From an uncultured Candidatus Saccharibacteria bacterium (GTDB lineage Bacteria > Patescibacteriota > Minisyncoccia > Phycocordibacterales > GCA-2401445): 56,761 nucleotides of DNA. This document shows positions 31,750-53,020 of the stretch, piece by piece. The notes below the pieces were generated by a model. The model did not search any database. It had not been told where the DNA came from and worked only from the letters and a program-made list of their open reading frames with translations. Positions within the stretch are counted from its first letter, which is position 1; each line of letters opens with the position of its first letter. The translations under genes and the position numbers were made by a program. The stretch is taken from NCBI GenBank assembly GCA_964436015.1, contig CAYTAR010000007.1, positions 1 through 56,761 on the forward strand, read 5' to 3'.

Positions 31750-31835
31750 ACATATTGAGTTTACCCAATAACGGATAAACACTGCGGTCGAGAATCGGTC
31801 GATTGCTAATTACAAATTAGTTTCATACACAACAT

Positions 31836-32922: not shown

Positions 32923-33164
32923 ATGTCTATAACTATATTACTAAAATCAATACATGAGTTTCCTCATTCCGCCAACTATACCACATATCACGGTTAGGTA
33001 AAATACACCTCAATGATTAACAGGTATATTTACACTTTTACATTGCAAAAAGAAATTATTCTACAACATTTATCTTTTCCACAAGCCAGACTCGCACGAA
33101 GACTCCGGCTTTCGCGACTTTGTTTTATTACTCACGAAGTGATTAGAAAACAAGAAGGACCCTT

Positions 33165-33581
33165 GTGGTGATTCTCCCTACCCGCAACATAAATATAGTC
33201 GCAAAATGCTCTCGCATTTTGCTTGTTATTTTTGTGCTTAAAAAGCATAAGAGGGAGAATCGGTCACAGATAATTTTGCTGACCTGCCTTTGCCGGCAGG
33301 CAGGTGTAAAAATTTTGCGACCTGATAATGTTCATTTCTACTTTAATAATGGAGTGTAGAGAATCGGTCACGAGTTACTAAGTCTGCTCATGCACTTCGT
33401 GCATTGCGCGGACTAAGTACTCGCGACCCCGCCTCGTCTGTTTCCGCTTTGAGCAAAAACCTCAAACAGAAACATGACTGCGGCTTTCGATTCTCCACGC
33501 AAGCAAAGAAGTTTGCTTGCTCTACTCCGCACCGCAAACAAAATTACCGTATTCCTGTTCGGAATACGGTAATTTTGGCGG
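33165..33581 (-). repeat. Composite structured element trailing tRNA-Gly(TCC), carrying tRNA T-arm-derived sense and antisense blocks
   Basis: About 160 nt (33417-33581) is roughly 93% identical by eye to 47834-47991. The antisense T-arm block is at 33486-33496. Sense 3'-end copies are at 33356-33371 and 33252-33267. An inverted 17-nt tRNA 3' copy is at 33170-33186. Confidence 0.8.
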
Positions 33582-33652
33582 TGCGGGTAGGGAGAATCGA
33601 ACTCCCGTATACTGCTTGGAAGGCAGTCATTCTACCACTAAACTATACCCGC
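33582..33652 (-). tRNA. tRNA-Gly (anticodon TCC), no encoded CCA
   Basis: Cloverleaf: acceptor GCGGGTA/TACCCGC, anticodon arm ACTGC-CTTCCAA-GCAGT, T arm GGGAG-TTCGATT-CTCCC, discriminator A. Confidence 0.9.
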
Positions 33653-46667: not shown

Positions 46668-46894
46668 AATATGGTTTGGGCACCGGCTCGTTGTTGCTCG
46701 AAGCTCGCAACATACTCCGCTGGTCGCTCTCGTGCACAATCTCACTTCGTTCGCTTGTGCCCTCGGACAGAATCAAACCTTACAGGTTCAGTACCCCAAT
46801 TGGATTTTTTCTTCGCCCTTCAGGCTCAAAAAAATGCTCAATCGGGCTTCGAATCCCGGGCGAAAGCGTACCCACGCTTTCTCGCAATTTGATG
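46668..46894 (-). repeat. Structured element trailing tRNA-Pro, with an antisense Pro T-arm block and a foreign tRNA 3'-end fragment
   Basis: ttcgaatcccgg at 46848-46859 (plus strand) is antisense relative to the minus-strand tRNA. A hairpin lies at 46860-46885. A tRNA-like 3' fragment at 46756-46779 (minus sense ggtttgattctgtccgagggcaca) does not match any tRNA in the window. Confidence 0.7.
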
Positions 46895-46967
46895 TCGGAG
46901 CGCCGGGATTCGAACCCGGAGTCATCTGCTCCCAAAGCAGACATGTTAGCCGTTACACCACGCTCCG
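46895..46967 (-). tRNA. tRNA-Pro (anticodon TGG), no encoded CCA
   Basis: Acceptor CGGAGCG/CGCTCCG, anticodon arm TCTGC-TTTGGGA-GCAGA, T arm CCGGG-TTCGAAT-CCCGG. Confidence 0.9.
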
Positions 46968-47020
46968 ATACAATTCAACTACGCTAGTCTAGCATACTGA
47001 ATGCAAAACGCCAGTACTTT

Positions 47021-47044
47021 TATAAAGGACATATGTCCTTTATA
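47021..47044. promoter_or_regulatory. Perfect 24-bp palindrome tataaaggacatatgtcctttata
   Basis: It is self-complementary and abuts the yraN stop codon. The half-site ATAAAGGACAT recurs at 47555-47613 and 50649-50690. Confidence 0.6.
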
Positions 47045-47461
47045 CTACCCCACGTTTACATTTTTTATGTGACGAACCCTTGCAACTCTATTTTGAGTAT
47101 CCAAGCGAACAATTAGCGCATCTAATCTCCATTCTGTTTCATCAGAAACATTATTTTCTAGGAGATAACTCCTAATGGTGCGAGTAAGTCTATCTATTTT
47201 CTTCCTATGTATATTCTCCTCAATACTATATATGCCATCAACACTCGTTACACGTGGAACATACAGTTTTTCAGTTTTTACCTCAACAAAAACCATTATT
47301 CTCTTTTCACGTGCAACAATATCTATTTCTCCCCACTTCTTTCTATAATTTCTGGCAATAACTGAAAACCCCTTTCTGGAAAGGAAGATCTCAGCAATAT
47401 CCTCACCGATTCTCCCAAACTTCATTTTGTCGGTTTCCCGTGAAATATTATTTGTATCCAT
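47045..47461 (-). CDS. yraN: YraN (UPF0102) family endonuclease-like protein
   Basis: GRIGEDIAEIFLSRKGF...NYRKKWGEIDIVA...MVFVEVKT signature. Confidence 0.85.
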   Translation of the reverse strand: MDTNNISRETDKMKFGRIGEDIAEIFLSRKGFSVIARNYRKKWGEIDIVAREKRIMVFVEVKTEKLYVPRVTSVDGIYSIEENIHRKKIDRLTRTIRSYLLENNVSDETEWRLDALIVRLDTQNRVARVRHIKNVNVG

Positions 47462-47629
47462 ATTTATAATAATACTATACCAACCTTGTTACACATGTAA
47501 CATTGTTTCATGTGAAACACACATATTTGTGTGATTGTCAAATATATGGCTCAAAATAAGGACATTTTGTCAAAGTCGTGTTATAAAAAGACAGCTAGCC
47601 ACATGTCTTTTATTCACATATCCACTGAG

Positions 47630-47638
47630 TTATCCACA
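47630..47638 (+). promoter_or_regulatory. Perfect DnaA-box 9-mer TTATCCACA
   Basis: Exact consensus, 17 nt from the degenerate ATAAGGACAT/ATGTCTTTTAT inverted repeat. Confidence 0.35.
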
Positions 47639-47746
47639 GTTTTGTGGTTAAAAAAGAGGATAACGATGTAGAGTAGGGTACTTTTCTGGCTTTAAGGGTA
47701 ATTGTAAATTAACTTTGTTTCCCTTTATTTTATCAATACTTAGAGG

Positions 47747-47752
47747 TATAAT
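47747..47752 (+). promoter_or_regulatory. Candidate -10 box for tRNA-Gly(GCC)
   Basis: TATAAT lies 10 nt upstream of the mature tRNA 5' end. I saw no convincing -35. Confidence 0.4.
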
Positions 47753-47762
47753 TGCTTTCACT

Positions 47763-47833
47763 GCGGGTATGGTTTAGTGGTAGAACACGTCCTTGCCAAG
47801 GACGAGTCGGGGGTTCGATTCCCCCTACCCGCA
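47763..47833 (+). tRNA. tRNA-Gly (anticodon GCC), no encoded CCA
   Basis: Acceptor GCGGGTA/TACCCGC, anticodon arm CGTCC-TTGCCAA-GGACG, T arm GGGGG-TTCGATT-CCCCC. Confidence 0.92.
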
Positions 47834-48059
47834 CCGCCAAAATTACCGTATTCTTAACAGAATACGGTAATTTTGCTTGCGGTGCGGAGTAGAGCAAGCA
47901 AACTTCTTTGCTTGCGTGGGGAATCGAAAGCCGCAGTCATGTTTCTGTTTGAGGCTTTTGCTCAAACAGAAACAGACGAGGCGGGGTCGCGGAAATTTTG
48001 CGCCTGCCGGCAAAGGCAGGTCAGCAAAATTATCTGTGACCGATTCTCTACCCGCACCA
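47834..48059 (+). repeat. Structured element trailing tRNA-Gly(GCC)
   Basis: Hairpins at 47839-47874, 47894-47915, 47941-47973 and 47994-48031. The antisense T-arm block ggggaatcgaa is at 47918-47928. The conserved box gaggcggggtcgcg is at 47978-47991. The terminal sense copy gtgaccgattctctacccgcacca is at 48036-48059. Confidence 0.8.
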
Positions 48060-48136
48060 CAAAAAGTAAGTAGATAGCGAGTTATTTGGTTATAAAAAGT
48101 TATGACCGATTCTTCATATCTCCAAATACATATTTA

Positions 48137-48174
48137 AAAGCATATCTTACGCTATATCGTAAGATATGCTTTTA
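48137..48174. terminator. 38-bp hairpin/palindrome (copy 2 of the cttacg...cgtaag palindrome), a likely bidirectional terminator between convergent tRNA units
   Basis: aaaagcatatcttacg-ctatat-cgtaagatatgctttt: 16-bp arms with A4/T4 flanks. Confidence 0.6.
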
Positions 48175-48278
48175 TGATGTTAATTATAGGTTTTAAGGTA
48201 AATAGGGAAGTAGACTGTTAAAAAATACCTACTTGATTTTCCTGTACCGCCCACCAGCAATGCTGCTAGTACACTAGT

Positions 48279-48650
48279 CTTCAAATCCCGGACGAAAGCG
48301 TCCCCACGCTTTCTCGGGTACAAAATATGGCTAAAAATATAGAGTTTGTGCCCCCGCCAGGATTCGGTCACAAGTTACTGAGGATTTTGCTAGTGAGTAC
48401 ACTTCAAAATCCAAAGTACTCGCGACCCCGCCTCGCTGTCGCAGAGCGACATGCTCCGGCTTTCGAATCCTGACGCAGTGTGTGCAGACACACTGCTTCG
48501 GGAAACATGTGCCCCCGCCAGGATTCGAACCTCTCGGAAACCCACGGTTTTCCGACGGGTAAAGCCCTGCCTTCCTCCACGGGAAACCGCAGGTTTCCCG
48601 ACCCCTTCCTGTTCGAATCCTGGCGGAACACGCCTCGCTACGCTCGTCTG
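48279..48650 (-). repeat. Array of elements trailing tRNA-Arg, with three direct copies and two antisense copies of the tRNA-Arg T-arm/acceptor 3' end
   Basis: tgcccccgccaggattcg occurs at 48651-48668 (in the tRNA), 48510-48527 and 48349-48366. Antisense blocks are at 48611-48626 and 48462-48472. A copy of the Pro-type module lies at 48279-48316. Confidence 0.85.
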
Positions 48651-48722
48651 TGCCCCCGCCAGGATTCGAACCCAGAATAACGGTTCCGAAGACCGTTGTG
48701 ATATCCATTTCACCACAGGGGC
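48651..48722 (-). tRNA. tRNA-Arg (anticodon TCG), no encoded CCA
   Basis: Acceptor GCCCCTG/CGGGGGC (one G-U pair), anticodon arm ACGGT-CTTCGGA-ACCGT, T arm CTGGG-TTCGAAT-CCTGG (two G-U pairs). Confidence 0.85.
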
Positions 48723-52102: not shown

Positions 52103-53020
52103 TTATTGTTTTCTTTTATTATGAAAATTCTTGTGTATATCTCGCAAATGCTTATCAGTAACATGAGTGTATATTTGAGTGGTTCCAATATGGGCGTGCC
52201 CCAAAAGAGCCTGTACACTTCTCAAATCAGCCCCATTGGAAAGCAGATCTGTTGCAAATGAGTGGCGCACCACATGGGGAGTAACTTTTTTTGAAATACC
52301 TGCCTTAATTGCGTAATATTTCACGATACGCTCAACAGAACGAGATGTAATACGTGACAAGGGGAGAGAATTGCTCTTTGAAACCCCAACAAACAACGCA
52401 TCACTCATATCTTTCCTTTTTTCCAAGTATGAACGAACAGCTACTTTAGCCTGAGTAGAAAGAAATACCACCCTTATTTTATCTCCTTTTCCACGAACAG
52501 AAAGTTCATCTCTTCCAAGATCAATATCTCTGTTCAATGAACATAGCTCAGAAACACGCAGGCCTGTTGAAAAAAGAAGTTCAAGTATTGCTTTATCCCT
52601 CAACGACTTAACATCCGTATCTTGCGGAGCATTGAGCAACCTCTCTAATTCATCACTCGTAATCAAATCAAGTGAACGCTCAGAAACCTTCGCGAGCTCA
52701 ATTCGCTCAGGAGGAAGTGACGCAACTCCGCGCTTCAACAAGTACTTTAAAAAAGACCGGAGCGCAATCAAATAATAATTTTGTGTCTTTCGTTTTAACA
52801 TACCCCCTCCACCATTACTACTTGGTGCAGGTTGGCGATTTAGCCACAAACGAAACTCCCTGATACATTCATCAGTAATATCTTTTGGGCTTTTGAGCTT
52901 TGTGTGCTCTAAAAATCGTTCTAGATAACGATCATAGTTGGCAACCGTTTTTAAACTACGGCCTTTCTCTATTTCCACATATTCTAAAAACTCCTGTTTG
53001 TAGCGTTTTAATTCATTCAT
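52103..53020 (-). CDS. XerC/XerD-type tyrosine site-specific recombinase
   Basis: N-terminal SAM-like domain. Catalytic residues appear in LRVSEL (R), HVVRHSFAT (HxxR) and LGHAHIGTTQIYTHV (H...Y). Confidence 0.88.
   Translation of the reverse strand: MNELKRYKQEFLEYVEIEKGRSLKTVANYDRYLERFLEHTKLKSPKDITDECIREFRLWLNRQPAPSSNGGGGMLKRKTQNYYLIALRSFLKYLLKRGVASLPPERIELAKVSERSLDLITSDELERLLNAPQDTDVKSLRDKAILELLFSTGLRVSELCSLNRDIDLGRDELSVRGKGDKIRVVFLSTQAKVAVRSYLEKRKDMSDALFVGVSKSNSLPLSRITSRSVERIVKYYAIKAGISKKVTPHVVRHSFATDLLSNGADLRSVQALLGHAHIGTTQIYTHVTDKHLRDIHKNFHNKRKQ

What the first reader, a model, noticed from the sequence alone, without database searches (positions are those of the whole stretch)
33165..33581. 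Second copy of the element behind tRNA-Gly(TCC): the scaffold is about 93% identical, but the antisense block has co-varied with its own tRNA, and units are nested
In tRNA-sense orientation, 33581-33417 aligns almost base for base with 47834-47991. The hairpin stems are the same and the loops differ. The antisense block here is ggagaatcgaa (plus-strand ttcgattctcc, 33486-33496). It matches the TCC tRNA T arm (CTCCC) rather than the GCC one (CCCCC), so the single G-to-A difference tracks the host tRNA.

The locus then contains two successive units. Each ends in ygtgac|cgattctc, a sense tRNA 3' fragment (plus-strand 33356-33371 and 33252-33267). The second unit reuses the cctgccggcaaaggcagg hairpin seen in the GCC element. 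This looks like serial insertion at the same T-loop junction, or deletion between junctions.

The far end (33170-33186) is a perfect 17-nt copy of the tRNA 3' end (gattctccctacccgca) in inverted orientation. The roughly 400-bp block is therefore bracketed by inverted tRNA-end repeats. An 11-mer of the junction (gagaatcggtc) also occurs at 31790-31800, in the hup leader.
Basis: seen in the sequence. Interest (0 to 1): 0.7.

Follow-up and report, generated by a model that had tools for sequence, protein, structure and literature searches.

The report
Guide-bearing mini-elements behind tRNA genes
The block behind tRNA-Gly(TCC) is an array of a small, protein-less, tightly folded element found behind tRNA and tmRNA genes across Patescibacteria and Elusimicrobia; each copy carries a stretch antisense to its own tRNA's T-loop and 3' end, and it looks like an undescribed, base-pairing-guided mobile element.

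Summary
The unit at 33366-33579 is one of at least 127 copies of one scaffold (family F1). I found it in 119 genome loci from Saccharibacteria, other Patescibacteria and Elusimicrobia. It always lies 3' of a tRNA or tmRNA gene and in the same sense.

In tRNA sense the order is: tRNA, optional terminator, anti-acceptor block, optional hairpin P3, antisense T-loop/T-stem block, AGCCGSAG, P2, CGAGGCGG, P1 (GGUCGC...GUGAC), then a displaced tRNA 3' fragment starting at C56.

The antisense block matches its own tRNA for at least 11 nt in 73 of 106 copies, against about 3% in shuffled pairings. This holds over 37 tRNA species plus tmRNA. The structure is strand-specific and covaries. No Rfam family, linked ORF or paper matches it.

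Several unrelated scaffold families share the same layout. Different families occupy the same tRNA in different genomes, or the site is empty.

Best reading (confidence 0.45): a non-autonomous, T-loop-specific mobile element that recognises or synapses with its target by base pairing, as a single strand, probably RNA. The mobilising activity is unknown. A recent segmental duplication is rejected.

The parts
33580..33652 (-). Host gene tRNA-Gly(TCC). Its 3' part from T54 is the sequence mirrored by the element.
   Evidence: ARAGORN; Rfam tRNA, 74 bits.
33539..33577 (-). T1: perfect 17-bp hairpin flanked by an A-run and a T-run, like a bidirectional intrinsic terminator. It forms the tip of the long palindrome between the tRNA 3' end plus trailer and its complement.
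   Evidence: I2 and I3. The same stem occurs at 47838-47875. The hairpin is optional in other loci.
33520..33535 (-). Anti-acceptor block. The plus strand reads ctctactccgcaccgc; on the tRNA-sense strand it is complementary to CTACCCGCACCGC, the acceptor 3' strand plus trailer.
   Evidence: I3. Generality: 17.7 of 21.3 nt of the tRNA 3' part pair with the downstream stretch in 98 units.
33500..33519 (-). P3, an optional branch hairpin inserted between the anti-acceptor and anti-T blocks.
   Evidence: The stem varies, and the loop GCAG (plus strand) / CUGC (tRNA sense) recurs in many loci.
33486..33496 (-). Antisense T-block (the 'guide'). On the tRNA-sense strand it reads GGAGAAUCGAA, complementary to U54-C64 of tRNA-Gly(TCC).
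   Evidence: at least 11 nt contiguous match in 73/106 units, against 2.7% in controls.
33478..33485 (-). J1, AGCCGCAG in tRNA sense. GCC pairs with GGC of J2 (helix P2a). The remainder forms a conserved G/A-rich internal loop.
   Evidence: Invariant columns in A2. P2a changes to GAC/GUC in variant scaffolds in L034 and L064.
33437..33477 (-). P2, a variable hairpin with covarying base pairs.
   Evidence: pair 22-33 is CG 82, UA 13, GC 12; pair 23-32 is CG 43, GC 34, AU 7.
33429..33436 (-). J2, CGAGGCGG in tRNA sense; invariant.
33366..33428 (-). P1 hairpin, GGUCGC...GUGACC, with an invariant G.U. It ends at the junction GUGAC|C56, between 33367 and 33366.
   Evidence: pairs 48-60, 49-59 and 50-58 covary, and pair 46-62 is G.U in 110/110. 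The tRNA-sense strand folds better in 111/113 units.
33354..33366 (-). Displaced tRNA 3' fragment 1 (CGATTCTCTACAC in tRNA sense). It pairs with the guide to close a three-way junction.
   Evidence: helix 1 is 85% paired, and 83-99% paired over the first 6 pairs next to the junction.
33262..33322 (-). 5'-truncated second unit. It has only a P1 hairpin, of the type present in the GCC element, plus its junction.
   Evidence: (D1). Similar 3'-end-only remnants occur in L059, L065, L100, L107 and L110.
33252..33262 (-). Displaced tRNA 3' fragment 2 (CGATTCTCCCT in tRNA sense).
33201..33222 (.). Terminator-like hairpin distal to the array. It may be the original tRNA terminator.
33170..33186 (-). 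Contiguous 17-nt antisense copy of the tRNA 3' end. I read it as the guide block of an older, decayed unit.
   Evidence: I1. Contiguous 16-20-nt guides without P3 occur in L026, L034 and L040.
33086..33118 (-). Degenerate J1/P2/J2 remnant (in tRNA sense: GTCGCGAAAGCCGGAGTCTTCGTGCGAGTCTGG). It marks the far end of the array.
   Evidence: D2 (33101-33114 against 33476-33489).
47836..48059 (+). Sister F1 unit behind tRNA-Gly(GCC). Parts: T1 47838-47875, anti-acceptor 47879-47894, P3 47895-47914, guide 47918-47928, J1 47929-47936, P2 47937-47976, J2 47977-47984, P1 47985-48041, distal fragment 48041-48059.
48347..48508 (-). F1 unit in the tRNA-Arg(TCG) array. Parts: distal fragment 48347-48366, P1 48366-48426, core 48421-48435, guide 48462-48472 (TTCGAATCCTG on the plus strand).

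Best explanation
The block is an array of one complete unit, one 5'-truncated unit and older remnants. The units belong to a small (about 150-250 nt), ORF-less, site-specific mobile element that colonises the T-loop / 3' end of tRNA and tmRNA genes.

The active form is a single strand in tRNA sense, more likely RNA than ssDNA. It folds into a three-way junction. One arm is an 11-nt (up to about 20-nt) segment antisense to U54-N64 and the acceptor 3' strand of the target. The other two arms are P2 and P1. The element's 3' end (GUGAC) lies at the junction, directly next to position C56 of whatever strand is paired to the antisense arm.

Shown: each unit is flanked on one side by a complete tRNA 3' part and on the other by a displaced copy starting exactly at C56.

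Inferred: base pairing places the element's 3' end at the U55|C56 bond of a target; the element is joined there; and the tRNA 3' part is duplicated or supplied so that the gene stays intact. New insertions would go next to the functional tRNA and push older units outward, where they decay or are truncated.

Unknown: the joining and copying activity. It must act in trans. Candidates are a reverse transcriptase acting on a SINE-like RNA, a recombinase acting on a folded strand, or catalysis by the conserved core itself.
For: (1) Same scaffold at many targets. I found 127 F1 units in 119 loci plus the window; 98 lie 27-115 nt from a tRNA. Hosts cover 37 tRNA species plus tmRNA.

(2) Guide-target match. 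At least 11 nt are contiguous in 69% of units, against 2.7% for shuffled pairings. Paralogous units within one genome keep P2 (38/40, 35/37, 42/45 identical) while the guide differs at 3, 3 and 1 of 11 positions, in step with their tRNAs where the host tRNA could be checked.

(3) Invariant junction. GUGAC|C56 is followed by a tRNA 3' fragment that is identical over 18 nt in 28 of 89 cases and near-full in 29 of 89.

(4) Signs of repeated insertion. There are tandem arrays (L063 with three units, L113, L057, L190) and 3'-end-only remnants.

(5) Sporadic occupancy. In an element-blind sample, only 22 of 153 tRNAs carry an antisense T-block. The same tRNA-Arg(TCG) carries F1, F2, F3 or other scaffolds in different genomes, or is empty as in L032 and L017.

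(6) Strand-specific, covarying structure. The tRNA-sense strand is more stable in 111/113 (P1) and 112/122 (P2) units. P1 has 190 G.U pairs on that strand against 38 on the other. The loop GCGAAGC occurs 29 times against 1 for its complement. Of all cells, 93.4% are paired, against 81.8% when shuffled (0 of 500 shuffles reach it) and 32-42% when slid.

(7) Not a known RNA and not an island. There is no Rfam hit and no recurrent neighbouring ORF other than housekeeping genes.
Against: No mobilising protein or reverse transcriptase was found in the window or near the units.

No presence/absence difference was seen between near-identical contigs. Mobility is therefore inferred only from deep comparisons.

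The Gly(GCC) unit is present in 7 of 9 syntenic Saccharibacteria loci whose YraN proteins are only 30-50% identical to the window's. That points to long retention or a function in place.

In L107 a unit sits behind tRNA-Gly with the Arg-type guide of its neighbour. A mismatch is therefore tolerated, and gene conversion shapes the guides.

Many units lie behind a strong intrinsic terminator. This argues against abundant tRNA-sense RNA.

How guide and 3' copy are re-specified for a new tRNA is unexplained.
Confidence: 0.45

Rival explanations
1. Miniature integrative element moved by a recombinase acting in trans on a folded single-strand attachment site. This would resemble integron attC or CTX-phage attP, or a CIME left by a tRNA-targeting island. 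The antisense block would not be a guide that searches for targets. It would be the second arm of a hairpin whose first arm is the element-borne tRNA 3' end. The protein would recognise the universal T-loop sequence GTTCRANYC.
For: The whole tRNA 3' part plus trailer is mirrored as one long quasi-palindrome with T1 at its tip.

The direct repeats usually end at the tRNA 3' end, within about 2 nt, as att cores do.

T1, the trailer and the body are shared by the TCC and GCC units, so the transposed block starts at or before the tRNA end.

Hairpin loops such as GCGAAGC are, from my own knowledge, known as unusually stable DNA mini-hairpins (count).

The junction position differs by family (52|53, 54|55, 55|56), like different att identity blocks.
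Against: No integrase is linked to the units, and only 1 hit was found in 2.9 million viral contigs.

Two G.T mismatches within 3 bp of the P1 base (one invariant, one in about half of units) are more natural as G.U pairs in RNA.

The anti-acceptor block, P3 and T1 are optional, while the 11-nt block directly fused to the scaffold is constant.

The 5'-truncated remnants are not expected from conservative site-specific recombination.
Confidence: 0.2
2. Host-serving cis-acting RNA in the tRNA trailer. The layout is an alternative-pairing switch with three parts: A is the tRNA 3' part, B is the antisense block, and A' is the downstream fragment. B pairs either with the tRNA, blocking its folding or marking it for decay, or with A', held by the P1/P2 junction. 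The junction could sense a ligand or protein and so tune maturation of that tRNA.
For: The guide is better conserved than the distal fragment at the same positions: 0.92-0.97 against 0.66-0.87 identity at C56+4 to +7.

The unit is retained at tRNA-Gly(GCC) across deep divergence.

The MFE and centroid folds of the full precursor show the two competing pairings at similar energy.

Many units have no terminator between tRNA and guide, so they would be co-transcribed.
Against: Only 14% of tRNAs are occupied, and the occupied ones are scattered.

Several unrelated scaffold families occur at the same tRNA, or the site is empty.

There are arrays, tandem copies and truncated remnants.

The distal fragment A' is decayed or interrupted in about a third of units.

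tmRNA and 37 different tRNAs are hit without any functional pattern.
Confidence: 0.15
3. By-product of replication or repair at tRNA terminators. Snap-back or template-switch synthesis from the terminator hairpin would create the inverted copy of the tRNA 3' end. Quasi-palindrome correction would keep it matched. The 'scaffold' would be merely a recombining repeat.
For: The layout S - reverse complement of S - S, where S is the tRNA 3' part, is what two template switches would give. The palindrome is continuous through T1. Gene conversion between neighbouring units is seen in L107.
Against: About 35 nt of core are identical from Saccharibacteria to Elusimicrobia, alongside covarying helices.

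The junction is invariant.

The inverted copy stops exactly at T54 and is fused to the scaffold in every unit.

Several distinct scaffold families each have their own fixed junction.
Confidence: 0.07
4. Recent segmental duplication of one Gly locus including its tRNA, with the G/A change a hitch-hiking substitution. This is the refuting scenario the first reader named.
For: The two units are 92% identical and share T1 and the trailer.
Against: The tRNA bodies are only 40/52 identical 5' of the T-loop and have different anticodon arms. The same covariation holds in more than 70 independent copies at 37 tRNA species.
Confidence: 0.02

Closest known systems
tRNA/tmRNA-targeting integrative elements (tyrosine-integrase islands, prophages) and their integrase-less derivatives (CIMEs)
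   Same: They insert in the 3' part of a tRNA or tmRNA gene and restore the gene with an element-borne copy. The displaced 3' fragment remains as a direct repeat. Tandem accretion occurs at one tRNA.
   Different: The element here is 150-250 nt with no integrase nearby. It has a conserved folded core, a strand-specific structure, and an internal antisense copy of the target that covaries with 37 different tRNAs.
Dada DNA transposons of eukaryotes (insert into tRNA/snRNA genes and carry a gene fragment that keeps the gene intact; PMC8869645, abstract seen)
   Same: Target-gene-specific insertion that avoids inactivating the RNA gene.
   Different: From my own knowledge, Dada elements encode a DDE transposase and have terminal inverted repeats and short target-site duplications. 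None of these is seen here.
Group II (and group I) introns: target choice by EBS/IBS or IGS base pairing, and joining of the RNA 3' end to the target by reverse splicing
   Same: An internal guide pairs with the sequence flanking the insertion point. The element's 3' end is joined exactly at the paired site. A bulged A lies 9 nt from the 3' end in P1. 5'-truncated copies exist.
   Different: There is no Rfam intron hit and no domain V/VI or group I core. There is no intron-encoded protein. The guide pairs mainly with the 3' side of the junction. The host gene is not interrupted.
IS110/IS1111 bridge (seek) RNAs
   Same: A structured non-coding RNA of about 150-200 nt carries a programmable segment matching the target, and another part (the P1 base) pairs with the element's own end.
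   Different: There is no DEDD/serine recombinase ORF in or near the units. The flanking repeat is 18-30 bp of tRNA sequence, rather than the 2-nt core I recall for IS110. There is one contiguous guide on one strand rather than split left and right guides in two loops.
Integron attC sites and CALIN arrays; CTX-phage folded attP
   Same: Strand-specific folded single-strand sites with free sequence but conserved structure. Arrays grow at one entry point. The recombinase acts in trans.
   Different: No R/L boxes were seen here, the target is a tRNA T-loop, and a conserved three-way-junction core is present.
SINE/LINE-type target-primed retroposition; primer-binding sites of LTR retroelements
   Same: Non-autonomous elements with a fixed 3' junction, variable 5' ends and flanking direct repeats of variable length. 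They depend on the promoter of an RNA gene. About 18-22 nt are complementary to a tRNA from the T-loop to its 3' end, as in a PBS.
   Different: As far as I know, no bacterial SINE-like system has been described. No reverse transcriptase was found nearby. The complementarity follows the gene's trailer (CCGC) rather than the mature CCA end.

Membership tests
Any Rfam 15 RNA family (including hammerhead, twister, twister-sister, pistol, hatchet, HDV-like and hairpin ribozymes, group I/II introns, HEARO/omega RNAs, tRNA-like RNAs) | Covariance-model match at or near the gathering score. | tested here: not met
   At the gathering threshold, only tRNA (window) and tRNA plus tmRNA (13 related loci) were found. 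At E <= 10 around both Gly loci, only weak sub-threshold hits to unrelated families appeared.
Integrase-mediated tRNA-targeting island / CIME | Direct repeat of the tRNA 3' part flanking the insert. | tested here: met
   The distal fragment starts at C56. It is identical over 18 nt in 28 of 89 cases and near-full in 29 of 89.
Integrase-mediated tRNA-targeting island / CIME | Integrase gene inside the insert, or a related integrase-bearing element with the same att arms. | tested here: not met
   No recombinase cluster was found among ORFs within 4 kb of 127 units. The recombinase genes seen in L042 and L046 belong to separate islands. Only 1 hit was found in viral contigs.
Group II intron | Domain V/VI, a GUGYG 5' end, an intron-encoded RT, and interruption of the host gene. 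| tested here: not met
   There is no Rfam hit and no ORF. The tRNA is intact.
IS110/IS1111 (bridge/seek RNA elements) | A DEDD-type recombinase ORF adjacent to the ncRNA, with a 2-nt core duplication. | tested here: not met
   The units are 150-250 nt and have no ORF. The repeats are 18-30 nt or longer.
IS110/IS1111 (bridge/seek RNA elements) | An ncRNA segment that covaries with the target sequence. | tested here: met
IS200/IS605 and PATE derivatives / omega RNA | Subterminal hairpins at both ends, a short (4-5 nt) target motif with no duplication, and tnpA/tnpB in autonomous copies. | tested here: not met
   There is a long tRNA repeat on both sides. No TnpA/TnpB appears among neighbours. 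There are no IS605-orfB or HEARO hits.
Integron attC | Imperfect palindrome with R''-L''/L'-R' boxes (GTTRRRY) and extrahelical bases, with IntI in the genome. | not tested
   A palindrome formed by the tRNA 3' part and its complement is present. R/L boxes and IntI were not searched for. Whole genomes are not available here.
Self-cleaving or self-ligating ribozyme (new class) | Site-specific cleavage or ligation at GUGAC|C in vitro. | not testable with these tools
   Only indirect support: a three-way junction with about 35 invariant nucleotides and the junction at the helix intersection.
SINE-like retroposon | An RNA intermediate and reverse transcription; a fixed 3' end with 5' truncations; variable flanking repeats. 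| tested here: inconclusive
   5'-truncated remnants and variable repeat lengths (18 to 57 nt) are seen. No RT was found, and there are no expression data.

The most novel reading that the evidence does not exclude
The conserved three-way junction is a catalytic or RNP core of a new class of RNA-guided homing element. A tRNA-promoter-driven trailer RNA would use its antisense arm to pair with the T-loop / 3' end of a tRNA gene or transcript. It would join its own 3' end (GUGAC) to C56 and be fixed in DNA by a host or borrowed polymerase. This would be a programmable, protein-coding-free 'bacterial SINE with a guide', present in several scaffold families across Patescibacteria and Elusimicrobia.
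Probability: 0.2. Interest if true: 0.95.

Novelty: categorically new. Interest (0 to 1): 0.82.

Why it matters
If the reading is right, tRNA and tmRNA genes of the candidate phyla radiation and Elusimicrobia host a whole superfamily of tiny, ORF-less elements. Their target specificity would be written in about 11-20 nt of antisense sequence fused to a conserved folded core.

That would add a new kind of nucleic-acid-guided mobility, next to group II introns, IS110 bridge RNAs and OMEGA/CRISPR systems. It would do so in organisms with very small genomes and few classical transposons.

It would also explain three things seen here: tRNA-gene fragments, rearrangements of tRNA clusters (the tRNA-Gly(GCC) inversions), and much of the 'intergenic' sequence behind tRNAs in these genomes.

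The invariant core and the simple guide rule make the idea directly testable. If a joining activity exists, it could be reprogrammed.

Even under the rival regulatory reading, it would be an unusual case of tRNA-specific antisense control.

Tried and rejected
Known RNA families. Four Rfam searches gave nothing except tRNA and tmRNA.

Linked protein. I clustered 1343 ORFs within 4 kb of the units. Only housekeeping neighbours recur: LepA, CCA-adding enzyme, YraN and others.

YraN enrichment. YraN appears in 10 loci. This turned out to be conserved synteny of a tRNA cluster, not a link to the element.

Window genes. Pfam on 40 window ORFs shows no RT, transposase or nuclease candidate apart from ordinary repair and housekeeping genes and a XerC/D-like recombinase at 52103-53020.

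Phage origin. One hit in the viral collection.

Strain-level empty sites. Exact-protein look-ups for HU and YraN found nothing on record. The metagenome scan with the CCA enzyme gave only relatives at 66% identity or less. The near-identical contig pairs I inspected showed no unit polymorphism: the L123/L124 difference is an unrelated island.

Hammerhead-like topology. The junction strand lengths (3-4, 2, 0) do not fit the 7, 3, 1-2 that I recall for the hammerhead core; rejected on that reasoning.

Retroviral-PBS-like priming by mature tRNA. The antisense block follows the genomic trailer, not CCA.

Distal fragment ending in a post-transcriptional CCA. Seen in only 3 of about 20 intact cases; not supported.

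L046 as an autonomous copy. A 4.2-kb segment with a large serine recombinase lies between the tRNA and the guide. No such arrangement recurs, so I treat it as an unrelated insertion.

Literature. Eight searches, including one for the core sequence itself, found no description. Subscription journals are not covered.
Full report
1. WHAT IS IN THE WINDOW

The window has four tRNA genes: Gly-TCC 33580-33652(-), Pro-TGG 46894-46967(-), Gly-GCC 47763-47835(+) and Arg-TCG 48650-48722(-). The genes around them are housekeeping: type IV pilus genes, ComEC, RecJ, RNase H, PGK, TIM, NusA, RNase Y, HU, a TrbL-like protein and the CCA-adding enzyme. GC content is about 42%. This fits a Saccharibacteria-type genome.

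The two Gly-linked blocks are 92.1% identical over 165 columns. The 11-mers ttcgattctcc (33486-33496) and ttcgattcccc (reverse complement, 47918-47928) each equal the T-loop plus T-stem 3' strand of their own tRNA. GAGAATCG|GTCAC recurs at 33255-33267 and 33359-33371. A perfect inverted 17-mer of the tRNA end lies at 33170-33186. GAGAATCGGTC occurs four times against 0.02 expected.

A third copy of the same scaffold lies in the tRNA-Arg array (48347-48508). Its 11-mer is TTCGAATCCTG, which matches tRNA-Arg.

2. IT IS A LARGE FAMILY

By my count of the record titles these are:
- 43 Saccharibacteria
- 45 other Patescibacteria
- 15 Elusimicrobia
- 12 unclassified MAGs
- 4 others, of which L036 lacks the rest of the structure and is probably a chance match.

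Of 127 units, 109 have a tRNA gene beside the antisense block, and in 98 the gap is 27-115 nt. Several units without a tRNA sit next to tmRNA genes beside smpB. Rfam confirms tmRNA in L005 and L016.

3. THE ANTISENSE BLOCK TRACKS THE HOST

I counted contiguous identity from T54. At least 11 nt match the unit's own tRNA in 73 of 106 units. The figure is 2.7% when units are paired with tRNAs from other loci. Thirty-seven tRNA species are represented.

The match covers the 7-nt T-loop plus 4-5 nt of the T-stem 3' strand. Beyond an optional hairpin (P3) it resumes on the acceptor 3' strand. When the stretch from T54 to the end of the block is folded alone, 17.7 of 21.3 nt of the tRNA 3' part pair with the downstream sequence.

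Paralogous units in one genome keep P2 almost unchanged (38/40, 35/37, 42/45 identical). Their guides differ at 3, 3 and 1 of 11 positions, in step with their tRNAs where the host tRNA could be checked.

It is not a hitch-hiking change in a segmental duplication. The two Gly tRNAs are 40/52 identical 5' of the T-loop and have different anticodon arms.

4. ANATOMY AND STRAND

Written in tRNA sense, the order is:
- tRNA
- optional terminator-like hairpin T1
- anti-acceptor block
- optional P3
- NNNNGAAUCGAA (the antisense T-block)
- AGCCGSAG (J1)
- P2
- CGAGGCGG (J2)
- P1 (GGUCGC...GUGAC)
- then a tRNA 3' fragment starting at C56.

The hairpins are far more stable on the tRNA-sense strand: 111 of 113 units for P1 and 112 of 122 for P2. 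P1 has 190 G.U pairs on that strand against 38 on the other. The loop GCGAAGC occurs 29 times against 1 for its complement.

I built a gap-free alignment of 110 units, with hairpin tips replaced by AAAA linkers. On it, 93.4% of cells pair, against 81.8% in shuffles (0 of 500 reach the observed value) and 32-42% when partners are slid. Compensatory changes occur in P1, in the base of P2 and in the helix between guide and distal fragment. The 3-bp helix GCC/GGC becomes GAC/GUC in variant scaffolds.

The result is a three-way junction. The element's last base (C of GUGAC) abuts C56 of whatever strand is paired with the guide. About 35 core nucleotides are invariant, but the search pattern itself required 22 of them.

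5. SIGNS OF INSERTION

The fragment after GUGAC is a displaced tRNA 3' end. It is identical over 18 nt in 28 of 89 units, near-full with small indels at positions 59-63 in 29, and decayed or interrupted in the rest. It usually ends within 2 nt of the tRNA 3' end, but some repeats reach 30-57 nt.

Arrays and exact tandem copies occur (L063, L113, L057, L190). So do remnants that keep only the 3' strand of P1, the junction and a T-loop fragment: window 33262-33322 and 48102-48115, and also L059, L065, L100, L107 and L110.

I also took a sample chosen without regard to the element: 80 metagenomic loci encoding relatives of the window's CCA enzyme. There, 22 of 153 tRNAs carry an antisense T-block with at most 1 mismatch within 260 nt.

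These belong to at least five or six different scaffold families with the same layout and family-specific junctions at 52|53, 54|55 or 55|56. Two of these families are also in the window: F2 behind tRNA-Pro and at 48280-48325, and F3 at 48532-48649.

In the conserved cluster Arg(TCG)-Gly(GCC)-yraN-Pro-Gly(TCC), the Arg gene carries F1, F2, F3 or other variants in different genomes, or nothing. Gly(GCC) carries F1 in 7 of 9.

6. WHAT IT IS NOT

There is no Rfam family. No recurrent neighbouring ORF exists other than housekeeping genes. No RT or transposase lies in the window. It is essentially absent from viral contigs. Eight literature searches, including one for the core sequence, found no description.

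7. INTERPRETATION

Shown:
- a widespread, strand-specifically structured, ORF-less element
- fused on its 3' side to C56 of a displaced tRNA fragment
- preceded by a segment antisense to the functional tRNA's T-loop and 3' end
- sporadic occupancy, with several families at one site.

Inferred (confidence 0.45): it is a non-autonomous mobile element that targets T-loops. Base pairing of the antisense arm places the element's 3' end at U55|C56.

The active strand is more likely RNA. The evidence is the G.U pairs at the base of P1 (one invariant), GNRA-like loops, and a position in the tRNA transcription unit. The fixed 3' junction with 5' truncations and variable repeats resembles target-primed retroposition or partial reverse splicing.

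A folded-ssDNA attachment site moved by a recombinase in trans is the main rival (0.2). It is favoured by the continuous palindrome through the terminator and by repeats that end at the tRNA end.

A host regulatory switch (0.15) is favoured by better conservation of the guide than of the distal fragment, and by retention at Gly(GCC). It fits poorly with arrays, truncations, multiple families and 14% occupancy.

Gene conversion between units clearly occurs. In L107 the Gly unit carries the Arg guide of its neighbour. Recombination between units probably also explains the inversions of tRNA-Gly(GCC) in the window, L064 and L110.

8. OPEN POINTS

- The mobilising activity is unknown.
- How the guide is re-specified for a new tRNA is unknown.
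- RNA versus ssDNA is unresolved.
- No strain-level insertion polymorphism was seen.

The tests that would settle these points are listed under decisive next steps.

Noticed in passing
window 46756-46893 and 48280-48325: A second scaffold family (F2) lies behind tRNA-Pro. Its layout is: antisense block, GCCCGAUUG, hairpin, CAAUUGGGGUACUGA, hairpin with a CUGUAAG loop, then the junction. Its guide matches tRNA-Pro, but its displaced fragment (46756-46776) is Arg-like, which suggests recombination between units. An orphan F2 guide plus hairpin lies at 48280-48317. The same family occurs in L034, L121, L133, L190 and L199.
   Followed up: partly
window 48532-48649: A third scaffold family (F3) lies directly behind tRNA-Arg. 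It has a contiguous 16-nt antisense block (48611-48626) and a displaced fragment that keeps the whole T-loop (48509-48531). The same family occurs behind tRNA-Pro in L124.
   Followed up: partly
window 31790-31800: A fourth copy of GAGAATCGGTC lies between the RNase Y gene and hup. On the minus strand it reads ..CGAC|CGATTCTCGACCGCA, a decayed junction plus a Gly-like 3' fragment with no tRNA present. It is probably a relic of a lost tRNA or unit.
   Followed up: partly
window 46894-48722; L107, L034, L091, L032, L017, L064, L110, L103: The cluster tRNA-Arg(TCG) / tRNA-Gly(GCC) / yraN (UPF0102) / tRNA-Pro / tRNA-Gly(TCC) is conserved next to the CCA-adding enzyme gene. tRNA-Gly(GCC) with its unit is inverted relative to tRNA-Arg in the window, L064 and L110.
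   Followed up: partly
L005, L016, L052, L088: F1 units sit behind tmRNA genes (next to smpB), with guides matching the tmRNA T-loop. In L016 the displaced fragment has a 20-nt insertion replacing the T-stem 3' strand.
   Followed up: partly
L046 (between the tRNA-Ser gene and the F1 guide) and L042: In L046 a 4.2-kb segment encoding a large serine recombinase separates tRNA-Ser(GCT) from its F1 guide and scaffold. In L042 an island with a tyrosine integrase is inserted in the anticodon loop of the tRNA next to a unit. I treat both as separate mobile elements, but L046 could be checked as a possible cargo-carrying form.
   Followed up: partly
L016, L017, L035, L047 (displaced fragments): Displaced tRNA fragments often carry 13-20-nt insertions right after CGA(G), or 1-2-nt deletions at positions 59-63. 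The acceptor part stays intact. The lesions thus remove complementarity to the variable part of the guide.
   Followed up: no
loci L001-L119, tRNA 3' flanks: Most host tRNA genes lack an encoded CCA and are followed by C-A and then an A-rich run (..N73-CA-AAA..). Displaced fragments often share this CA.
   Followed up: no
window 52103-53020: A 305-aa XerC/D-type tyrosine recombinase (Phage_integrase plus SAM-like N domain) lies 3.4 kb from the tRNA-Arg array. It is probably the housekeeping Xer protein, and no link to the units was found.
   Followed up: no
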